A stretch of DNA of 64,000 nucleotides. Source: Amoebophrya sp. A120 (Eukaryota > Protista > Dinoflagellata). The position numbers and the translations under genes were made by a program. The notes under the pieces were generated by a model, which searched no databases, was not told where the DNA came from, and worked only from the letters and a program-made list of their open reading frames with translations. The stretch lies in contig CAJINV010000016.1 in assembly GCA_905178155.1 (NCBI GenBank), forward strand, positions 1,834,018 to 1,898,017. The letters run 5' to 3'. This document shows, piece by piece, positions 18 to 63,486 of this stretch; position 1 is the stretch's first letter, and each line of letters opens with the position of its first letter.

Positions 18-1743
18 TCCGTCATTTTGTCGCAGATCCACATGATGTCATTTTGAATGGACAGGGTCACGGTGCCGCCGCACTGCGGCAGCGCGTCGCC
101 GCCAGCGCCAGTACCTTGCTTTTCACGACGGAGGTGCAGGTCCTGTGACGTTGTGTGTTTTTTCGCATTGTTCAGCGTCATTTTGAAAGAAGTAGTGGAA
201 GACCCTTGTTTCGTAGCAAGACCGGCTTGTTCCTTCTGCTGGGCTTCTTTTTTGGAATTGCTCAACGTCATCTTGAAAGCGGTAGAAGTAGAAGTTGATT
301 TCGTTTTTGTAGAACCAGAGAGGAACTTGTGCTGCGCCAATTCCTGATCCTCCTCCTCCGCGTGTTTGTGCACCTCTTTCACCGACGAGTGACCGCTCTC
401 AGAGGTGGAAGCTATCCTACTTCCAGACGATCCCGTGCCTTTTCTCGCATTCAACATGACTTGGAAAGAAGCAGAGGACGTTGTAGCGGCGGAAGTTGTA
501 GATGAAGATTTTTCATCCTGCTCAAGAACTTCTACGCCAGTCTTTTTCGAAGGATCTATTTGGGTGACTTTGAAAGAAGTGGTTGTTGTTTCTTCAGGAG
601 CTCTATCGAATGTAAAAATGTCTGGGTCTGGAAGAATGCAAGTAGTTTGTCATGCTTGTCTCGCATGACTCTGGTTCTGGAATCTGTCATATATGCGCAG
701 GGCAGCAGCCTCTTACCTCTCACGCAAAAACGCAGTTTGTCATGCGGGAAGCGAAACACATAGGAGCTCAGAAACTTGTCATGCGTGGCTGCGTATCGCA
801 GTGCGCCCACCATGCACAAACTAGCATTACAAGTTTCCAGACCCAGAGCCAGATATTTTTGCATTTGATAAGTTCCTTGGGACAGCTCATCATCGTCGTT
901 GTGATGGTGGTGGTGGTGGTGATGATGGTGATGATGATGGTGGTGGTGAGGGTGACGATGGTGGTGATGACCTATGCATTTGTACAAAAGTATCGAGCTG
1001 GTATTTCAGAATCCTAAGCGACATACAAAATTTTCCCACGATGTGAAACAACATCTCCAACGGACGATGGCAAACTTGTCACACAGCCGTAGAAATGCAA
1101 TCAGGACTAGCTCCTCTAGCACGAAGATATTTTTGCACTGAATATGACCATGGTGATGGTGATGATGGTGATGATGATCCTCATCCTCCTCCTCTTCGTC
1201 CTCCTCTTCATGCTCCATTTCGAGGTCATGTTGCTCCGCGGCCTCGTCCTGAGAAGTGGTCTTCACACGAGTCTCATCAAGCTGTTCCTTCTTGTGGTGC
1301 GCCAACAGCTCCTGGCTCTTTATTTTGTCGTCTTCCTGGGTAGTTTCGATTTCATTCTCCCGCGGCCCGTCATCGTCCCCCGGTGCGCTTTTTTTCGAAT
1401 TCAGATTGATTTTCAGAGACAATGTTGACTTGTCCTGCCGTTTTTTATCGGAAGTAGCTTTCTTTCCCGAAGGAGCTGGCGTAATGTGCTGGTCGTGTTT
1501 TGTTTGTTGTAATTCCGTGGTGCTCTTTGAGTTGTAGTAGTGGTTCCCGACGAGGGGGGAGAAGGAGGCTCTACTTGTTCTTTCCGCGCCCCCATTAAAA
1601 GAACCTCTGGCAGCTGGTACAGCTCCCGCCGAACAAATTATCACCGGTAAAAGCGCGAAGAAGCGTGAACTACCCAAAAGCGAAAACCGACGCCCGGCCG
1701 AGTAAAAACATGACTCGGGCACGGTGCTGCGTGACATTTTCAT
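18..1743 (-). CDS. Putative secreted His-rich protein with the start of a Cys domain (QCGGTVTL..WICD); 3' end lies outside the window
   Basis: ATG at 1743 with a hydrophobic N-terminal stretch. The frame is open through exons 1743-1145, 967-871 and 598-18 once the elements at 973-1144 and 604-870 (each plus 5 bp) are removed. Confidence 0.75.
604..870. mobile_element. Introner family A (TIR TATCAAATGYAAAAATGTCTGGGTCTGGAA)
   Basis: TIRs; flanks AGCTC/AGTTC. Confidence 0.9.
973..1144. mobile_element. Introner family G (TIR TAT..TGCAAAA.TATC), 172 bp, inside a poly-His tract
   Basis: Imperfect TIRs; perfect flanks TGACC/TGACC; removal restores the frame. Confidence 0.8.
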
Positions 1744-2502
1744 GATCTTCTTTGCGCGTTATGTCTATCTCGTACTAGAATTAGAATTTCAATTTCAGGT
1801 TTTTATCTCTCACTCCCAACTGTTTGTGTTTTCTTCAGAAGCCCTATATTCGTTTGTTTCGATTTCGAATATGCGCGTTCCTCTCAAGCCGAAGCCGCGG
1901 CTCTCGTGTGAGAATGAAGTTTCCGCAGGCGTCTGAAAAGATCAGTGTTGAAGTACGTAAATCGCACTCGCGATACTAGGCTGTGTCTACTAAGCACTTC
2001 TTTTGTCCAACTCATTCAATGCCCCTCGTTTTCTGCTTTTCCCTCGCTATCACATTGCAAGCTAGTATCTCACGTATTTTCAGACCCCTGAAATATCCTG
2101 CTGTAGCAGTTAATTTTGCCCATAACTTTGCCCCTGCTCTTCGCACTCAAAAAAGAAACCCGCTCACTTTCCTTGACTTTCACTTTGGATGCCACGTTAA
2201 AGCAGCGAAGAGACGAGCATTTGAACAAAGTTAAAGCAGAAAGCAAAATTGGGAACAATCACAGACGTGGTCATGCGTCGTTTTTTAACGTTCTTCGTAA
2301 CCCCCGCTCGATAACCACCGGCTTACCGAATAATCCATCACATATACGACCACCGCAACATCGTGCACAACAGTTCTGTCAAGAACTCAATTCCAAAGGA
2401 ATAAAGAGGAGAAGCCGCAACGGCAACACCAACAGCGGGTCACATAACTGGGAGTTCTACTTCGATTTCAGACGAGTTTCAAAAGCGGTTGTTGAACTCC
2501 TT

Positions 2503-3495
2503 TTATTTTCTTTTCACCCTCACCTCCCTCCTTTCCAAAAAAGCCGCCAGCTCAAGCCTCTTCTTCGTCTTTTCCTTCCTGCAGTCGATGCGAACTAGCG
2601 TCGTCGCGGTGCCCCCAAGCGACTTACAGTACGCCTCCGGATCGGTGCATTCTGCGCACGTATCTGCTAAAGAGCAGCTTTGCATGCCCGCGCTATTTTC
2701 CTGCTCTCCTCCTCCGACGTGATGATCCTTATCACAGGATATGTACTTGTGCAACTTCCCCTCGTCGTACGAAGCCGCGACGATCGTCCCTCTTCCCGGC
2801 TTCGACCTGCGGCGCCGGCGTTGCGTGTCGCGGTGGGAGAGCTTTTCGTGGTAGTGCAGAACGCCCGTGGCAGCGTTGCAGATCCACTTTGTATCGTTCC
2901 GCTTTTGCAGCTCGAGCCCGCTCAGAGGGTAGCACTCCCAGTCCACTCTGGGATCGCGGCGCCGCTTATGTCTTGTTTTGCGGTGCTTTTTTTTATGTGG
3001 AACTACTGCTCCAGTCGAAGATTTGGTGAGACTCGACGTGCCGCCGTGCTGTTCCTTGTCGTGCAGTTCAGTTTCGGCTTGTTTGCGAGGAGCCGACGTT
3101 CGTCTTGCTTCTGCATCACCGCCTTCATCATCGGAATGAGTTGGATGTTCTTCCGCCGATATTTGTAGTCCGAGCGCAGCAGCACCGGTGGCTTCTGATG
3201 GCATAACCTCTTCGTCCTCCCCACTGTTCACGCGGCTGACTCCGCCTGCAGCATCGTGGGGAGTGCGTCGCGGCGCATGGTCCACTTGCTGATGCTGGCT
3301 GTGTGAAGTAGTAGCATCCTTGTTCTTCGCCACAGCTTCTTCCTCGAGAAACGCGACATTAGAGTTTCCGCCCCTCTCCTCCGAATCCGACACCGGGTTG
3401 ACCTGCATGACAGGGGCTGGCTTCCCCACCCGACTGGCCTCCATTACTCCATTGACGCTGGCGACGCAAAAGGCAGCGGCCGTGGCGATTCTCAT
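2503..3495 (-). CDS. Putative secreted protein, 330 aa, with C-terminal Cys-rich domain; paralog of both neighbours
   Basis: Uninterrupted ORF. Signal-peptide-like start MRIATAAAFCVASVNG; motif KWICN..GVLHYHE..GKLHKYISC. Confidence 0.75.
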   Translation of the reverse strand: MRIATAAAFCVASVNGVMEASRVGKPAPVMQVNPVSDSEERGGNSNVAFLEEEAVAKNKDATTSHSQHQQVDHAPRRTPHDAAGGVSRVNSGEDEEVMPSEATGAAALGLQISAEEHPTHSDDEGGDAEARRTSAPRKQAETELHDKEQHGGTSSLTKSSTGAVVPHKKKHRKTRHKRRRDPRVDWECYPLSGLELQKRNDTKWICNAATGVLHYHEKLSHRDTQRRRRRSKPGRGTIVAASYDEGKLHKYISCDKDHHVGGGEQENSAGMQSCSLADTCAECTDPEAYCKSLGGTATTLVRIDCRKEKTKKRLELAAFLERREVRVKRK

Positions 3496-61726: not shown

Positions 61727-62800
61727 TTTCGTCCTGCTCCTGCACGCCTGATATAAGTTTTGTCCACCGCGGCCCGATGGAACTGTTGTAGTGGAGTGTG
61801 AATCTTCACACAAACAAAAAAAGACCTGGTATGTACTTGAACTTGCGTATGCAAACCAAAGCAGCAAGTGTAGGTATAGGCCTTCTAATGTAGCTAGGAA
61901 GTGAAAAGAGGTTCTTTCGTGTTGATCCTAGACCTCTACGATGATCAAATCTGACACTGTCCGTCAGATCAAAGCCCTGCGCGACAAAATGGTGGTCAAT
62001 TGTACCATTGGATCAACATGCTCAAGAACGTAAAGGAGTGCTGTAGTTCCCACTCCATGATAAAGATAAGGCACTTAGCTCTGATCCACACCGCGGCGGC
62101 GCGGTATTAACGCTACTGAAGTACAAATAAGTTCAAATAAGTAGGAGATCCTTGTCTTCTACTCTGATGGCAAAGATCATTCTCTGCACCATCTAAATAG
62201 AACTACCAAAACGTCGTGCGACAAAGCTCCTGATAACAAGCTACTATTGCAGATCGAAAACTTCCCCTTCTATCTTCGTTTTCTTTTCTAGCGGAGATCT
62301 GTCCGAAGATGCACCGTACTGATAATGGCGGTGGTGGCAGTGGTGCATTGCAATTGCTTGTGCTTCTGCTTGCAGCTTACATTAACTCTAATACAACCTC
62401 CGGGCTTATCAATACTTGCGACCGTGGCCGCTTTCTTTGATCCCGCCTAGTGTGGCTTTCGATGTTGTCAGAATGCAGTTTCAGTTGCTCTTATTTATCG
62501 TAACAAAACTTGAGGGCAACCCACTTCTAAAGGTCGGCCAAGACACGTCTTGGTCTTTCACAACGTGGAAATAAACCTATTAAACACCTGCAACGACACG
62601 AAAAGTTACGCTTCAGACCAACGCGCAAGCAAATGCAAGTCCCCAGCTCGTTTCTGCGAGCTGCAAGATGTTGACCTGCTTCTTGTCGTGCACGTTGATA
62701 CACCGTCTGTGACCAATCAGAAGAAAACCGATGAATCCCTCGTACAGAGTTTCGTTTGGTTTGCAACTCCCCCTGGTGGACGTGGAAAAATGAACCTAAA

Positions 62801-63486
62801 TCACGTTATCCGCAGCTGGTTCTCCTCGGCGTCTTCGGTTACAATCCGTAGAAACACCTCATCCAAGGTAGTTTTTGCGATGCTCCATTCCCGTATGGGT
62901 AGGTTGCTGTCGACGGAGCTCTCCGCACGATCCGTGCCGCGCATAATTCTTTCATTCTCCAACTTGTCGAAGATCAAACTCACGTCGACACTATCGGACG
63001 ATACAGCAGTTGAAGCACCAACACCCCCATGATCACTTTTCACCACCACCGGGATCTGAAACTGCAGTAACACCCCCCGACTCTCGATCGGGAAAACCGT
63101 CGACAGCTTGCACTGGTTCTTCAGGAACGCCAAGATTCTGTTCTGTTGAACCTCCTTCTGCTTCAGCAGTATCAAATGTAAAAGTGTCTGGGTCTGGAAG
63201 AATGCAACTTGTGATGCTGAATTTGGATTCCAAAAAAATCTGTATTGCATGAGCAGCAAAGAGAATGCAATTTTTGCTACGCGGAGAGGACATTTGTCAT
63301 GCGGAGTAGGCATCGCGAAGCCCTCAAAAAATCTGTGATGCTAGGGCATGCATCACAGACATCCTGGCCAATGCAAAACATGCATGACAAGTCTCAGAAT
63401 CTTCCAGACCCAGACATTTTTACACTTGATAAGCAGCGACATTTGCTCACTCGACGCGTAGTTCAAAGCGATTGTGAGCATGTACC
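62801..63486 (-). CDS. 3' end of an ABCA-family ABC transporter; the rest lies beyond the window
   Basis: GYMLTIAL and EWSIAKTTLDEVFLRIV match the ABCA C-terminal regulatory-domain pattern. In frame across element 63170-63431. Confidence 0.7.
63170..63431. mobile_element. Introner family A
   Basis: TIRs; flanks AGCAG/AGCAG. Confidence 0.9.

What the first reader, a model, noticed from the sequence alone, without database searches (positions are those of the whole stretch)
604..63431. Multi-family TIR transposon system acting as non-GT-AG introns (element plus 5 bp removed)
Seen: 46 complete elements (~15 kb) with TAT...ATA ends (one starts TGT), TIRs and mostly 5-bp flanking direct repeats (33 perfect). 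All interrupt ORFs. Deleting the element plus 5 bp gives in-frame joins at every junction I checked, e.g. a 4458-nt and a 6744-nt CDS. Sense-strand repeats such as CAACA (4618), ACAAA (18997) and CCTAC (21974) contain no G, so no exact excision register can give GT/GC-AG ends. Established: inverted-repeat/direct-repeat introners have been reported in Amoebophrya, and as far as I know their removal mechanism is unresolved. Inference: a dedicated structure-guided splicing pathway exists, or alternatively programmed DNA excision like ciliate IESs.
Basis: partly seen in the sequence, partly recalled or inferred. Interest (0 to 1): 0.92.

Follow-up and report, generated by a model that had tools for sequence, protein, structure and literature searches.

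The report
Hairpin transposon introns of Amoebophrya
In a marine parasite of algae, 46 small jumping-DNA copies interrupt genes and, where RNA-derived sequence could be checked, are missing together with exactly five flanking letters, although most lack normal splice signals; a hairpin likely guides the cut, and the elements are already published while the cutting machinery is still unknown.

Summary
Observation confirmed: 46 TAT…ATA elements (14,969 nt), 33 with perfect 5-nt flanking repeats, all inside minus-strand ORFs; removing element+5 gives the 4458- and 6744-nt CDS. Exons match Amoebophrya sp. A120 proteins at 100%, and the anatomy is that of the published A120 introner elements (PMC7789003, PMC12130899), so the system is already known. 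A spliced RNA contig lacks four consecutive elements plus exactly 20 nt; DNA contigs keep them, which speaks against IES-like excision. Added here: a second assembly gives the same rule (237 of 301 exact 5-nt repeats; frame rule 44 of 46); all four multi-copy families occur in both orientations; 40 of 46 have no GT/GC-AG register. One rule (element+5) plus aligner sliding reproduces the published 'variable' splice-site table (Spearman 0.77), so the real cut position is unknown. Best guess: stem-guided splicing by a remodelled spliceosome (0.45) versus a separate nuclease/ligase (0.35). Unchecked scan notes report similar elements in other dinoflagellate genomes.

The parts
604..870 (.). Element, main ~260-nt family, orientation A; sense flanks GAACT/GAGCT (4 of 5)
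973..1144 (.). Element, singleton, 172 nt; perfect repeat; in-register GT..AG (k=1); terminal stem not predicted
4618..4878 (.). Element, main family, orientation B; perfect G-free repeat CAACA; AT..AC possible
13213..13483 (.). Element, main family, B; flanks GACCC/CACCT (3 of 5)
13636..13844 (.). Element, 209-nt family, A; perfect repeat; RNA contig leaves the genome at its edge
15149..15406 (.). Element, main family, B; perfect repeat
16420..16628 (.). Element, 209-nt family, B; perfect repeat
16868..17129 (.). Element, main family, B; perfect repeat
17190..17441 (.). Element, main family, B; perfect repeat
18997..19251 (.). Element, main family, A; perfect G-free repeat ACAAA
21614..21889 (.). 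Element, decayed singleton; flanks CGCCT/GAGCT (2 of 5); GC..AG available at k=1; absent from RNA contig
21974..22183 (.). Element, 209-nt family, A; perfect G-free repeat CCTAC; absent from RNA contig
22240..22502 (.). Element, main family, B; flanks TGGGC/TGGGA; absent from RNA contig
22545..22844 (.). Element, 300-310-nt family, A; perfect repeat; absent from RNA contig
27527..27788 (.). Element, main family, B; perfect repeat; RNA contig leaves the genome at the repeat
27841..28105 (.). Element, main family, A; perfect repeat
28260..28522 (.). Element, main family, A; flanks CAGGA/GAGGA
28657..30545 (.). Long element (1889 nt) with main-family ends and an internal 92-nt tandem array; no Pfam hit in the three ORFs scanned
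33307..33558 (.). Element, singleton; splits the kinase just before the DFG motif; +5 join equals public A120 protein P0001
33826..34088 (.). Element, main family, B; in kinase domain; +5 join equals P0001
37399..37657 (.). Element, main family, A; flanks GGCGC/GGCGT; GC..AG at k=1
37717..38026 (.). Element, 300-310-nt family, B; perfect repeat
38255..38519 (.). Element, main family, A; perfect repeat
39250..39512 (.). Element, main family, B; perfect repeat
39553..39817 (.). Element, main family, B; perfect repeat
40353..40602 (.). Element, main family, A; perfect repeat
44472..44733 (.). Element, main family, B; perfect repeat
44827..45783 (.). Long element (957 nt); flanks AGGTA/AGGTG; GT..AG at k=2
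47837..48159 (.). Element, 321-nt family, A; perfect repeat
48335..48546 (.). Element, 209-nt family, A; perfect repeat
50484..50804 (.). Element, 321-nt family, B; perfect repeat
50854..51113 (.). Element, main family, B; flanks GGCTG/GGGAG; GC..AG at k=1; terminal stem not predicted
51776..52044 (.). Element, main family, B; perfect repeat
52108..52428 (.). Element, 321-nt family, A; perfect repeat
52553..52712 (.). Element, decayed singleton (160 nt); flanks CAAGT/CAACT; terminal stem not predicted and no canonical register
53765..54039 (.). Element, decayed singleton; flanks AGTGC/GCACC (1 of 5); GT..AG at k=1
55090..55296 (.). Element, 207 nt; perfect repeat; +5 join equals P0003
56004..56211 (.). 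Element, 209-nt family, B; perfect repeat
56702..56937 (.). Element, singleton; perfect repeat
57001..57327 (.). Element, 321-nt family, A; perfect G-free repeat
57491..57759 (.). Element, main family, B; flanks CGATG/AGATT (3 of 5)
58323..58598 (.). Element, main family, A; one end TGT; flanks ATGTG/CTGTG
59672..60720 (.). Long element (1049 nt); flanks ACCCT/ACCCG; no transposase-like Pfam hit in five ORFs scanned
61127..61378 (.). Element, main family, B; 93% like 61426
61426..61677 (.). Element, main family, B; perfect G-free repeat
63170..63431 (.). Element, main family, A; perfect repeat
63492..64000 (.). Incomplete element: one end and internal motifs, other end not in the window
11820..17768 (-). 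Host ORF, 4458 nt after removing 6 elements; unknown protein
21562..23470 (-). Host ORF, 840 nt after removing 4 elements; transcript contig seen
31027..35154 (-). Host ORF, Ser/Thr protein kinase with 2 elements; residues 243-1200 equal P0001
36966..42189 (-). Host ORF with 6 elements; likely continues over a canonical intron into a TTL-domain exon (37113-35848)
43019..48905 (-). Host ORF, RING/IBR ubiquitin-ligase-like, 4 elements
50226..61726 (-). Host ORF, 6744 nt after removing 15 elements; unknown protein with one 43%-identical relative (P0004)
24487..25744 (-). Small-GTPase (Rab-like, recalled from its motifs) gene region with five canonical GT..AG introns; control showing that run X3 holds spliced RNA

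Best explanation
The 46 inserts are small non-coding DNA transposon copies (TAT…ATA ends, 5-base target duplication) in Amoebophrya A120 genes that are missing, with exactly five extra bases, from the RNA-derived contig checked, likely because their paired ends fold into a stem that would guide a remodelled spliceosome to cut without GT-AG. Steps. (1) Shown: insertion into coding DNA with a sequence-independent 5-bp duplication, several families, either orientation, shared TA..TA ends and a shared subterminal motif (TGT[GC]ATGC and its mirror). (2) Inferred: mobilised in trans by an integrase-type DDE transposase not seen here. (3) Predicted: in the pre-mRNA the two ends pair from the first U-A onward, putting the two copies of the duplication side by side. 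(4) Shown for four elements, inferred for the rest: element plus one copy of the duplication is removed, which restores the pre-insertion coding sequence. (5) Inferred, weakest: the stem replaces U1/U2AF recognition and the U2/U5/U6 core does the chemistry somewhere inside the duplication; the exact cut position is not known. (6) Suggested only: some old copies acquire GT/GC..AG of the same length and then lose their stem.
For: Anatomy and frame. Second assembly, repeat-blind detection: 237 of 301 exact 5-nt repeats; frames called separately on both sides need element+2 mod 3 in 44 of 46. RNA contig X3 record 12: 434 letters observed, 434 predicted only for +5 each (+2 gives 446, +8 gives 422); the same run lacks five canonical introns exactly (434 = 1122-688). 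P0001 equals the +5 joins at both kinase elements. Host ORFs are maintained: at 2% neutral substitution 2-18 of 300 simulated copies of five ORFs stay open, at 4.5% 0-4 of 300, while 21 of 230 repeat positions already differ. Stem: median fold z -7.9, 40 of 43 below -2, ends paired in 38 of 43 (expected for any TIR element, so necessary but not proof). Both orientations: 16/9, 3/2, 3/1, 1/1. No GT/GC..AG in any equivalent register in 207 of 223 perfect-repeat elements. For the spliceosome: 83 of 89 proteins and U2/U4/U5/U6 found but U1 snRNA not found in A120 (PMC7789003), whereas a congener with canonical introns has U1 (PMC12005148); canonical introns share the same transcripts; a U2 spliceosome handles MITE-derived non-GT-AG introns in Fritillaria.
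Against: No register keeps a conserved letter at both cuts, unlike Fritillaria. The stem would hide any branch point and pyrimidine tract. At 21614 the RNA piece ends at 21607, which by the tool's earliest-joint rule means the upstream repeat copy is kept (k>=3), so the available GC..AG (k=1) would not be used; this is one junction read indirectly. The excess of canonical ends among imperfect-repeat elements (5 of 13 vs 1 of 33, p=0.005) did not repeat in the second assembly (3 of 46 vs 15 of 190; that detector missed 12 of 46 window elements, including four of the six with canonical ends). 52553 has neither a predicted stem nor canonical ends. Public model P0002 disagrees with the +5 join at 22545 and stops inside 21614. 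All RNA evidence is cDNA-based. No lariat or inhibitor data.
Confidence: 0.47

Rival explanations
1. Same elements and same product, but a separate non-spliceosomal pathway: a stem-recognising endonuclease cuts on both sides of the TA-capped stem and a ligase joins the exons, as proposed for Euglena nonconventional introns.
For: No letter is conserved at both cuts in any register; only the stem and its first T-A are constant (T1 88 of 88 at each end in coding copies, about half of them chosen by an exact pattern). Works in both orientations. GC..AG at 21614 apparently unused. Euglena introns give full-length circles and need paired motifs at fixed spacing.
Against: No such enzyme is known here. 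The Euglena code is met by 0 of 46. Apparent U1 loss tracks these introns among Amoebophrya strains, which points to a changed spliceosome.
Confidence: 0.35
2. The element-free sequences are reverse-transcription artefacts (template switching across a hairpin between short direct repeats), or arise by polymerase skipping rather than by splicing.
For: Hairpin, direct repeat and non-canonical ends are the falsitron signature (PMC8240250). Frame restoration by element+5 follows automatically from a 5-bp duplication. All RNA data seen are cDNA contigs.
Against: All 46 would destroy their ORF if kept, yet ORFs with up to 15 elements stay open while the repeats have diverged. Element 21614, with a 2-of-5 repeat and fold z -1.5, is removed in the same contig as its neighbours. 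So in-cell removal is needed; an artefact could still add to the signal.
Confidence: 0.08
3. Programmed DNA excision, like ciliate IESs: the elements are cut out of the DNA of an expressing nucleus.
For: Ends and duplication are transposase-type, and precise removal of one duplication copy restores the empty site.
Against: In DNA run X1 the eight listed contigs run 25-38 nt into the elements at depth 38-49, the same as the flanks, and one passes right through 21614. No separate germline nucleus is known in this parasite (recalled), so excision would be inherited and the elements lost. Only one DNA run was laid, it may be the window's source, and contigs drop rare forms.
Confidence: 0.04
4. An ordinary spliceosome uses nearby cryptic GT..AG sites, or cuts one base outside each end (N|TAT…ATA N, element+2).
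For: 18 of 46 have a frame-keeping GT..AG pair within 15 nt. Published top motifs for A120 are NT..AN.
Against: 28 of 46 have no such pair. The RNA contig needs +5 each. Element+2 predicts no GC or GA donors and fits the published table worse (Spearman 0.42, mean difference 1.2 points) than element+5 with sliding (0.77, 0.37 points).
Confidence: 0.05

Closest known systems
Introner elements / non-canonical introns of Amoebophrya sp. A120 (Farhat et al. 2021, PMC7789003; sections and supplement text read, figures not seen)
   Same: Same organism (P0001, P0002 at 100%); inverted repeats starting TAT + 7 nt + AAA (74 of 92 ends exactly); 5-bp direct repeats; about 240-260 nt; many families; RNA-supported removal; mechanism left open.
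   Different: The paper reports 3-5-nt repeats and highly variable splice sites. Here one rule (5-nt duplication; element plus one copy removed) fits, and the variety is reproduced by sliding inside the repeat.
A120 introner families of Gozashti et al. 2025 (PMC12130899; passages and 40 of 58 A120 rows of the supplementary table seen)
   Same: Mostly classed as TIR DNA transposons of about 209, 250-280 and 305-320 nt; family 38 noted as 'Ginger, 5-bp TSD, TA/TA termini'; integrase (PF00665) hits listed among family 3 members.
   Different: Automated duplication lengths there range from 2 to 6 and splice modes vary by family; no removal mechanism given in what I saw. I did not match my families to theirs by sequence.
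IS3EU/GingerRoot and Ginger2 integrase-type DNA transposons (PMC10045372, passages)
   Same: TA..TA termini as in IS3EU/GingerRoot; 5-bp duplication as in Ginger2 (4-5 bp).
   Different: IS3EU/GingerRoot make 6-bp duplications; no transposase found here.
Euglenid nonconventional introns (PMC12501133 abstract and passages; PMC11282704 passages)
   Same: Paired ends, frequent slidable direct repeats, no GT-AG, proposed MITE origin, unknown machinery.
   Different: The code N3CDG…CHGN5-6|R is met by 0 of 46; here the cuts lie outside the stem within the duplication.
Non-canonical introns of Fritillaria borealis (PMC11282704, PMC13326754, passages)
   Same: MITE-derived, TIR and TSD, non-GT-AG, genome-wide.
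   Different: Fritillaria keeps preferred ends (AG-AC, AG-AT), U1 and duplicated U2AF; A120 shows no conserved letter at both cuts and no detected U1.
Ciliate internal eliminated sequences (recalled)
   Same: Transposon-derived, inside coding DNA, precisely removed.
   Different: Removed from DNA in a somatic nucleus at TA repeats; here DNA contigs keep the elements and the repeat is 5 nt of any sequence.

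Membership tests
A120 introner elements (Farhat 2021) | Located in Amoebophrya A120 genes | tested here: met
   Two exons match proteins named Amoebophrya sp. A120 at 100%
A120 introner elements (Farhat 2021) | Terminal inverted repeats starting TAT + 7 nt + at least 3 A | tested here: met
   91 of 92 ends TAT; 74 of 92 exact TAT-N7-AAA; mirror identity 7-20 of 20, median 17
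A120 introner elements (Farhat 2021) | 3-5-nt direct repeat at the boundaries | tested here: met
   33 of 46 exact 5 nt; 237 of 301 in fetched loci
A120 introner elements (Farhat 2021) | Repeated in families | tested here: met
   Families of 25, 5, 4 and 2 among 43 short elements; 41 of 46 hit the fetched loci at 72-96% identity
A120 introner elements (Farhat 2021) | Absent from transcripts | tested here: met
   Four elements by exact arithmetic, two by contig ends, of 14 in the stretch laid; cDNA contigs only
U2-type GT/GC-AG introns | GT/GC..AG at the exact cuts | tested here: not met
   Absent in every register in 40 of 46 and 207 of 223
U2-type GT/GC-AG introns | Lariat via branch-point A, spliceosome dependence | not testable with these tools
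   Needs lariat sequencing or inhibition
U12-type introns | AT..AC or U12 donor, minor snRNAs | tested here: not met
   AT..AC possible in 2 of 46; minor snRNAs reported absent
IS3EU/GingerRoot | TA..TA termini | tested here: met
IS3EU/GingerRoot | 6-bp target duplication | tested here: not met
   0 of 46 and 0 of 299 exact 6-nt repeats
Ginger2/TDD or related integrase-type transposons | Cognate DDE integrase-like transposase | tested here: inconclusive
   No transposase Pfam hit in eight ORFs of two long elements; ORFs in two long candidates in loci looked like host exons and were not scanned; no whole genome held
Euglenid nonconventional introns | N3CDG…CHGN5-6|R code | tested here: not met
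   0 of 46 in any register
Euglenid nonconventional introns | Stem joining the intron ends | tested here: met
   Predicted in 38 of 43
Ciliate IES | Element-free DNA allele in the expressing genome | tested here: not met
   One DNA run, contigs only: elements present at flank depth
Falsitrons (RT artefacts) | Joined form absent from direct RNA sequencing | not testable with these tools
   No direct RNA run was listed; ORF maintenance argues against

The most novel reading that the evidence does not exclude
A120 runs a second, non-spliceosomal mRNA splicing pathway that reads no letter at either cut: any TA-capped transposon stem is removed with exactly one copy of its target duplication, in either orientation, tens of thousands of times per genome. 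The published 'unprecedented variety' of splice sites is then one rule blurred by aligners, and old copies are handed over to the spliceosome by gaining GT/GC..AG.
Probability: 0.35. Interest if true: 0.9.

Novelty: already known. Interest (0 to 1): 0.5.

Why it matters
The elements are described, but how A120 removes roughly 30,000 introns without splice dinucleotides is an open question. The result here narrows it: the product is always the pre-insertion sequence, the signal must be orientation-free, and published cut positions are likely aligner choices. That gives a direct test: read the retained letters at junctions whose two repeat copies differ (13 in this window, 64 of 301 in the fetched loci), as was done for Euglena with non-slidable introns. 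A pathway that makes any such insertion harmless would explain mass intron gain and how transposons become ordinary introns.

Tried and rejected
No whole genome was held, so no transposase or snRNA search. Raw RNA runs X9 and X10 covered no exon of the stretch, only element pieces (157 and 2 reads): no evidence either way. No listed holder is on record as RNA; X3 was accepted as RNA only because five canonical introns are missing exactly. The joint table was filled by DNA-run repeats, and no second set of reads was laid, so junction letters were never seen directly and the cut position stays open. Public gene models as a stand-in for reads: P0001 and P0003 cross only perfect repeats; P0002 keeps TGGGA at 22240 (k<=4) but is unreliable at two other junctions; the search for a longer model of the 6744-nt gene found none. 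Stop-codon test of register: 1 weak case in 46. G excess at the position that would give AG (70 of 190) is close to that at other repeat positions (47-64 of 190): rejected as evidence for k=1. Special selection on terminal TAT: striking in the window (1 of 92 ends changed vs 21 of 230 repeat positions) but in the loci 18 of 191 ends deviate (several by shift only) and other TIR positions are about as conserved: kept as weak. Element+2 and element+8 rejected. Homolog P0004 favours +5 by only 4 bits. No viral contig holds the TIR pattern. No Rfam match in the window. None of 142 loci overlaps the window's unique DNA, so no empty site was seen. Sequence look-up in earlier findings was blank.

Full report
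What is there. A search for paired TAT/ATA ends, an end profile and an internal-motif scan gave 46 complete elements of 160-1889 nt (median 262; 14,969 nt) and one incomplete one at 63492. 33 of 46 have an exact 5-nt flanking repeat (chance 0.05) and none an exact 4- or 6-10-nt repeat; the repeat has no consensus. Interiors fall into families of 25, 5, 4 and 2 with 7 singletons among the 43 short elements; the three long ones were not clustered. All share the end consensus TAT-N7-AAA (74 of 92 ends exactly) and a subterminal motif TGT[GC]ATGC with its mirror image (16.5 per kb inside the 42 elements then listed, 2.1 outside; median 5 per element, forward copies near the left end and mirror copies near the right). 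This is MITE anatomy: no coding capacity was found.

Host genes. All long ORFs of the window read on the minus strand. All 46 elements are inside them (about 66% of non-element DNA is coding; p=5e-9) and all 46 would stop or shift the frame if kept. Removing element+5 gives the 4458- and 6744-nt CDS and opens at least 1500 nt at 32 of 45 junctions, against 3-7 of 45 for other frame classes. This alone only shows insertion into ORFs with a 5-bp duplication. That removal happens in the cell follows from upkeep: 21 of 230 repeat positions already differ, yet five ORFs of 3.6-6.7 kb stay open, which 2-18 of 300 simulated copies do at 2% neutral change and 0-4 of 300 at 4.5%. Hosts include a kinase split just before DFG and a RING/IBR protein.

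Organism and prior art. Two exons match proteins labelled Amoebophrya sp. A120 at 100%; P0001 equals my +5 joins at both kinase elements over 958 residues. Farhat et al. 2021 (PMC7789003; abstract, sections 10, 11, 12, 16, 25, 32 and supplement text read, figures not seen) describe A120 introners with IRs starting TAT + 7 nt + at least three A, 3-5-nt direct repeats, 29,850 copies, U1 snRNA not found, mechanism open. Gozashti et al. 2025 (PMC12130899; passages and 40 of 58 A120 supplement rows) class most families as TIR DNA transposons and note '5-bp TSD, TA/TA termini' for one. So the system is already known. Searches listed no paper on how A120 removes them; subscription papers are not covered, and the Roy et al. 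preprint was seen only as a listing.

RNA and DNA evidence (stretch 8700-28640, 14 elements, 4 runs of 11 listed). Run X3 is spliced RNA: record 13 lacks five GT..AG introns, 1122-688 = 434 letters as observed (intron list read). Record 12 has 434 letters before 22845, matching removal of four consecutive elements from three families and a singleton with +5 each (446 for +2, 422 for +8). Records 11 and 14 leave the genome at the edges of 13636 and 27527. In DNA run X1 the eight listed contigs run 25-38 nt into the elements at depth 38-49 and one crosses 21614 whole; element bins sum to very high depth, in line with many related copies (not a copy number). X1 may be the window's source. Raw RNA runs X9 and X10 covered no exon. 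Junction letters were not displayed. The first piece of record 12 ends at 21607; by the earliest-joint rule that fits the other four junctions listed, this means the upstream repeat copy is kept at 21614 (k>=3), so its GC..AG would be unused. This is one indirect reading. Against it: in 21614, 50854 and 53765 the differences between the repeat copies fall at the positions that make GT/GC..AG at k=1.

A second assembly. The end pattern was absent from viral contigs and hit one assembly in the metagenome collection (142 loci, 406 kb with overlaps), none overlapping the window's unique DNA. Repeat-blind detection found 301 elements: 237 with 5 of 5 matches, 41 with 4, 11 with 3, 12 with fewer (a stricter pass gave 231 of 299 and no exact 6-nt repeat). 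The detector recovered 34 of 46 window elements with no false call. Where the frame could be called separately on both sides (46 of 301), 44 needed element+2 mod 3.

No splice signal in any register. With k letters of the upstream repeat kept, k=0-1 fix only the 3' end (TA, or A+N) and k=4-6 only the 5' end (N+T, TA, AT); none fixes both. 40 of 46 window elements and 207 of 223 perfect-repeat elements have no GT/GC..AG in any equivalent register. Each multi-copy family occurs in both orientations (16/9, 3/2, 3/1, 1/1), so the signal must be symmetric. The ends are predicted to pair in 38 of 43 (median z -7.9), pairing stops at the TAT/ATA edge, and the Euglena code is met by 0 of 46.

The published variety of splice sites. 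The A120 table lists GT-AC, CT-AG, AT-AG, GT-CG, GT-AA, CT-AC, AT-AT, AT-AC, TT-AG at 2-3% each. I took 223 perfect-repeat elements, removed element+5, and slid each junction to the best partial match to GT..AG (a rule recalled from BLAT-type aligners, not taken from a call; the paper used BLAT and Hisat2). Scaled by 29,850/66,565 (a rough share), this gives 3.0, 2.7, 2.0, 1.9, 1.8, 0.5, 1.2, 0.9, 1.8; over 13 listed motifs Spearman 0.77 (p=0.002), mean difference 0.37 points, against 0.42 and 1.21 for element+2, -0.01 and 1.21 for fixed k=1, 0.71 and 1.18 for fixed k=4. It also comes close to the donor and acceptor shares of the two largest families seen in the 2025 supplement. So the annotated cut positions are likely aligner choices and the true one is unknown. 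I found this point in none of the passages read.

Possible hand-over to ordinary splicing. In the window 5 of 13 imperfect-repeat but 1 of 33 perfect-repeat elements have in-register GT/GC..AG (p=0.005), and 973, 21614 and 50854 have lost the predicted terminal stem. The second assembly did not repeat this (3 of 46 vs 15 of 190), though its detector misses decayed copies. It remains a lead.

Mechanism. Shown: transposon anatomy, 5-bp duplication, both orientations, removal product for four elements, presence in DNA. Inferred: an integrase-type transposase in trans (TA..TA ends as in IS3EU/GingerRoot, which make 6-bp duplications; 5 bp as in Ginger2; PMC10045372 passages); stem formation in vivo; the catalyst. 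I put a remodelled spliceosome slightly ahead (0.47) because A120 keeps nearly all spliceosomal proteins and U2/U4/U5/U6 but no detectable U1 snRNA, a congener with canonical introns has U1 (PMC12005148 passages), and Fritillaria shows that a U2 spliceosome can adapt to MITE introns (passages). A separate nuclease/ligase is close (0.35), given the lack of any conserved letter and the Euglena precedent. RT artefact or polymerase skipping (0.08; PMC8240250 passages), cryptic or +2 splicing (0.05) and DNA excision (0.04) are unlikely. Reviews PMC11453091 and PMC12787238 (passages) add no mechanism; the latter notes a U1-70K homologue in A25. Two unchecked notes of this scan describe hairpin elements missing from transcripts without splice signals in other dinoflagellates; I did not test them.

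Verdict. Real, correctly described and published; the removal mechanism is still open, and the single element+5 rule with a list of non-slidable junctions makes it directly testable. Interest 0.5; 0.9 if a non-spliceosomal pathway is shown.

Noticed in passing
window 25030-25310: Decayed element pieces (one end and internal motifs) sit inside two canonical GT..AG introns of the Rab-like gene; copies outside exons seem to decay.
   Followed up: partly
window 63492-64000: Start of a further element (TATCCTGAGTAA type) whose other end is not in the window.
   Followed up: no
L044 3329-3608: An element of that same type is flanked by an 8-nt repeat instead of 5; removing 5 or 8 both keep the frame, so it could test whether removal follows the repeat or a fixed distance.
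   Followed up: no
window 28900-30460: The 1889-nt element carries a GC-rich 92-nt tandem array (about 11 units) and shorter inverted arrays between intact main-family ends.
   Followed up: no
window 10000-11450: GC-rich (up to 68%) intergenic stretch with no depth in RNA run X3 and no element ends; nature unknown.
   Followed up: partly
window 18997-19028 and 28296-28346: RNA run X9 has 69-138 reads with a short element piece between foreign flanks, although it covers no exon here: an element remnant kept in a transcript elsewhere or in another strain.
   Followed up: no
window 27253-32400: RNA record 14 (2406 nt) is long enough to reach from the short 30607 ORF into the kinase ORF if four elements are removed, hinting at shared or overlapping transcripts; a contig does not prove one transcript.
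   Followed up: no
window 21562-23470: Public model P0002 reads 13-14 nt into element 22545 and stops inside 21614, at odds with the RNA contig: A120 gene models can be wrong at these junctions.
   Followed up: yes
window 6531-6723 and 24487-25608: Four of seven canonical donors read here begin GTAT, which equals G plus the elements' first three letters.
   Followed up: partly
window 1-64000: Every long ORF lies on the minus strand, as in the unidirectional gene clusters reported for this genus; element-free genes include a Sof1/WD40 protein and a GNAT acetyltransferase.
   Followed up: partly
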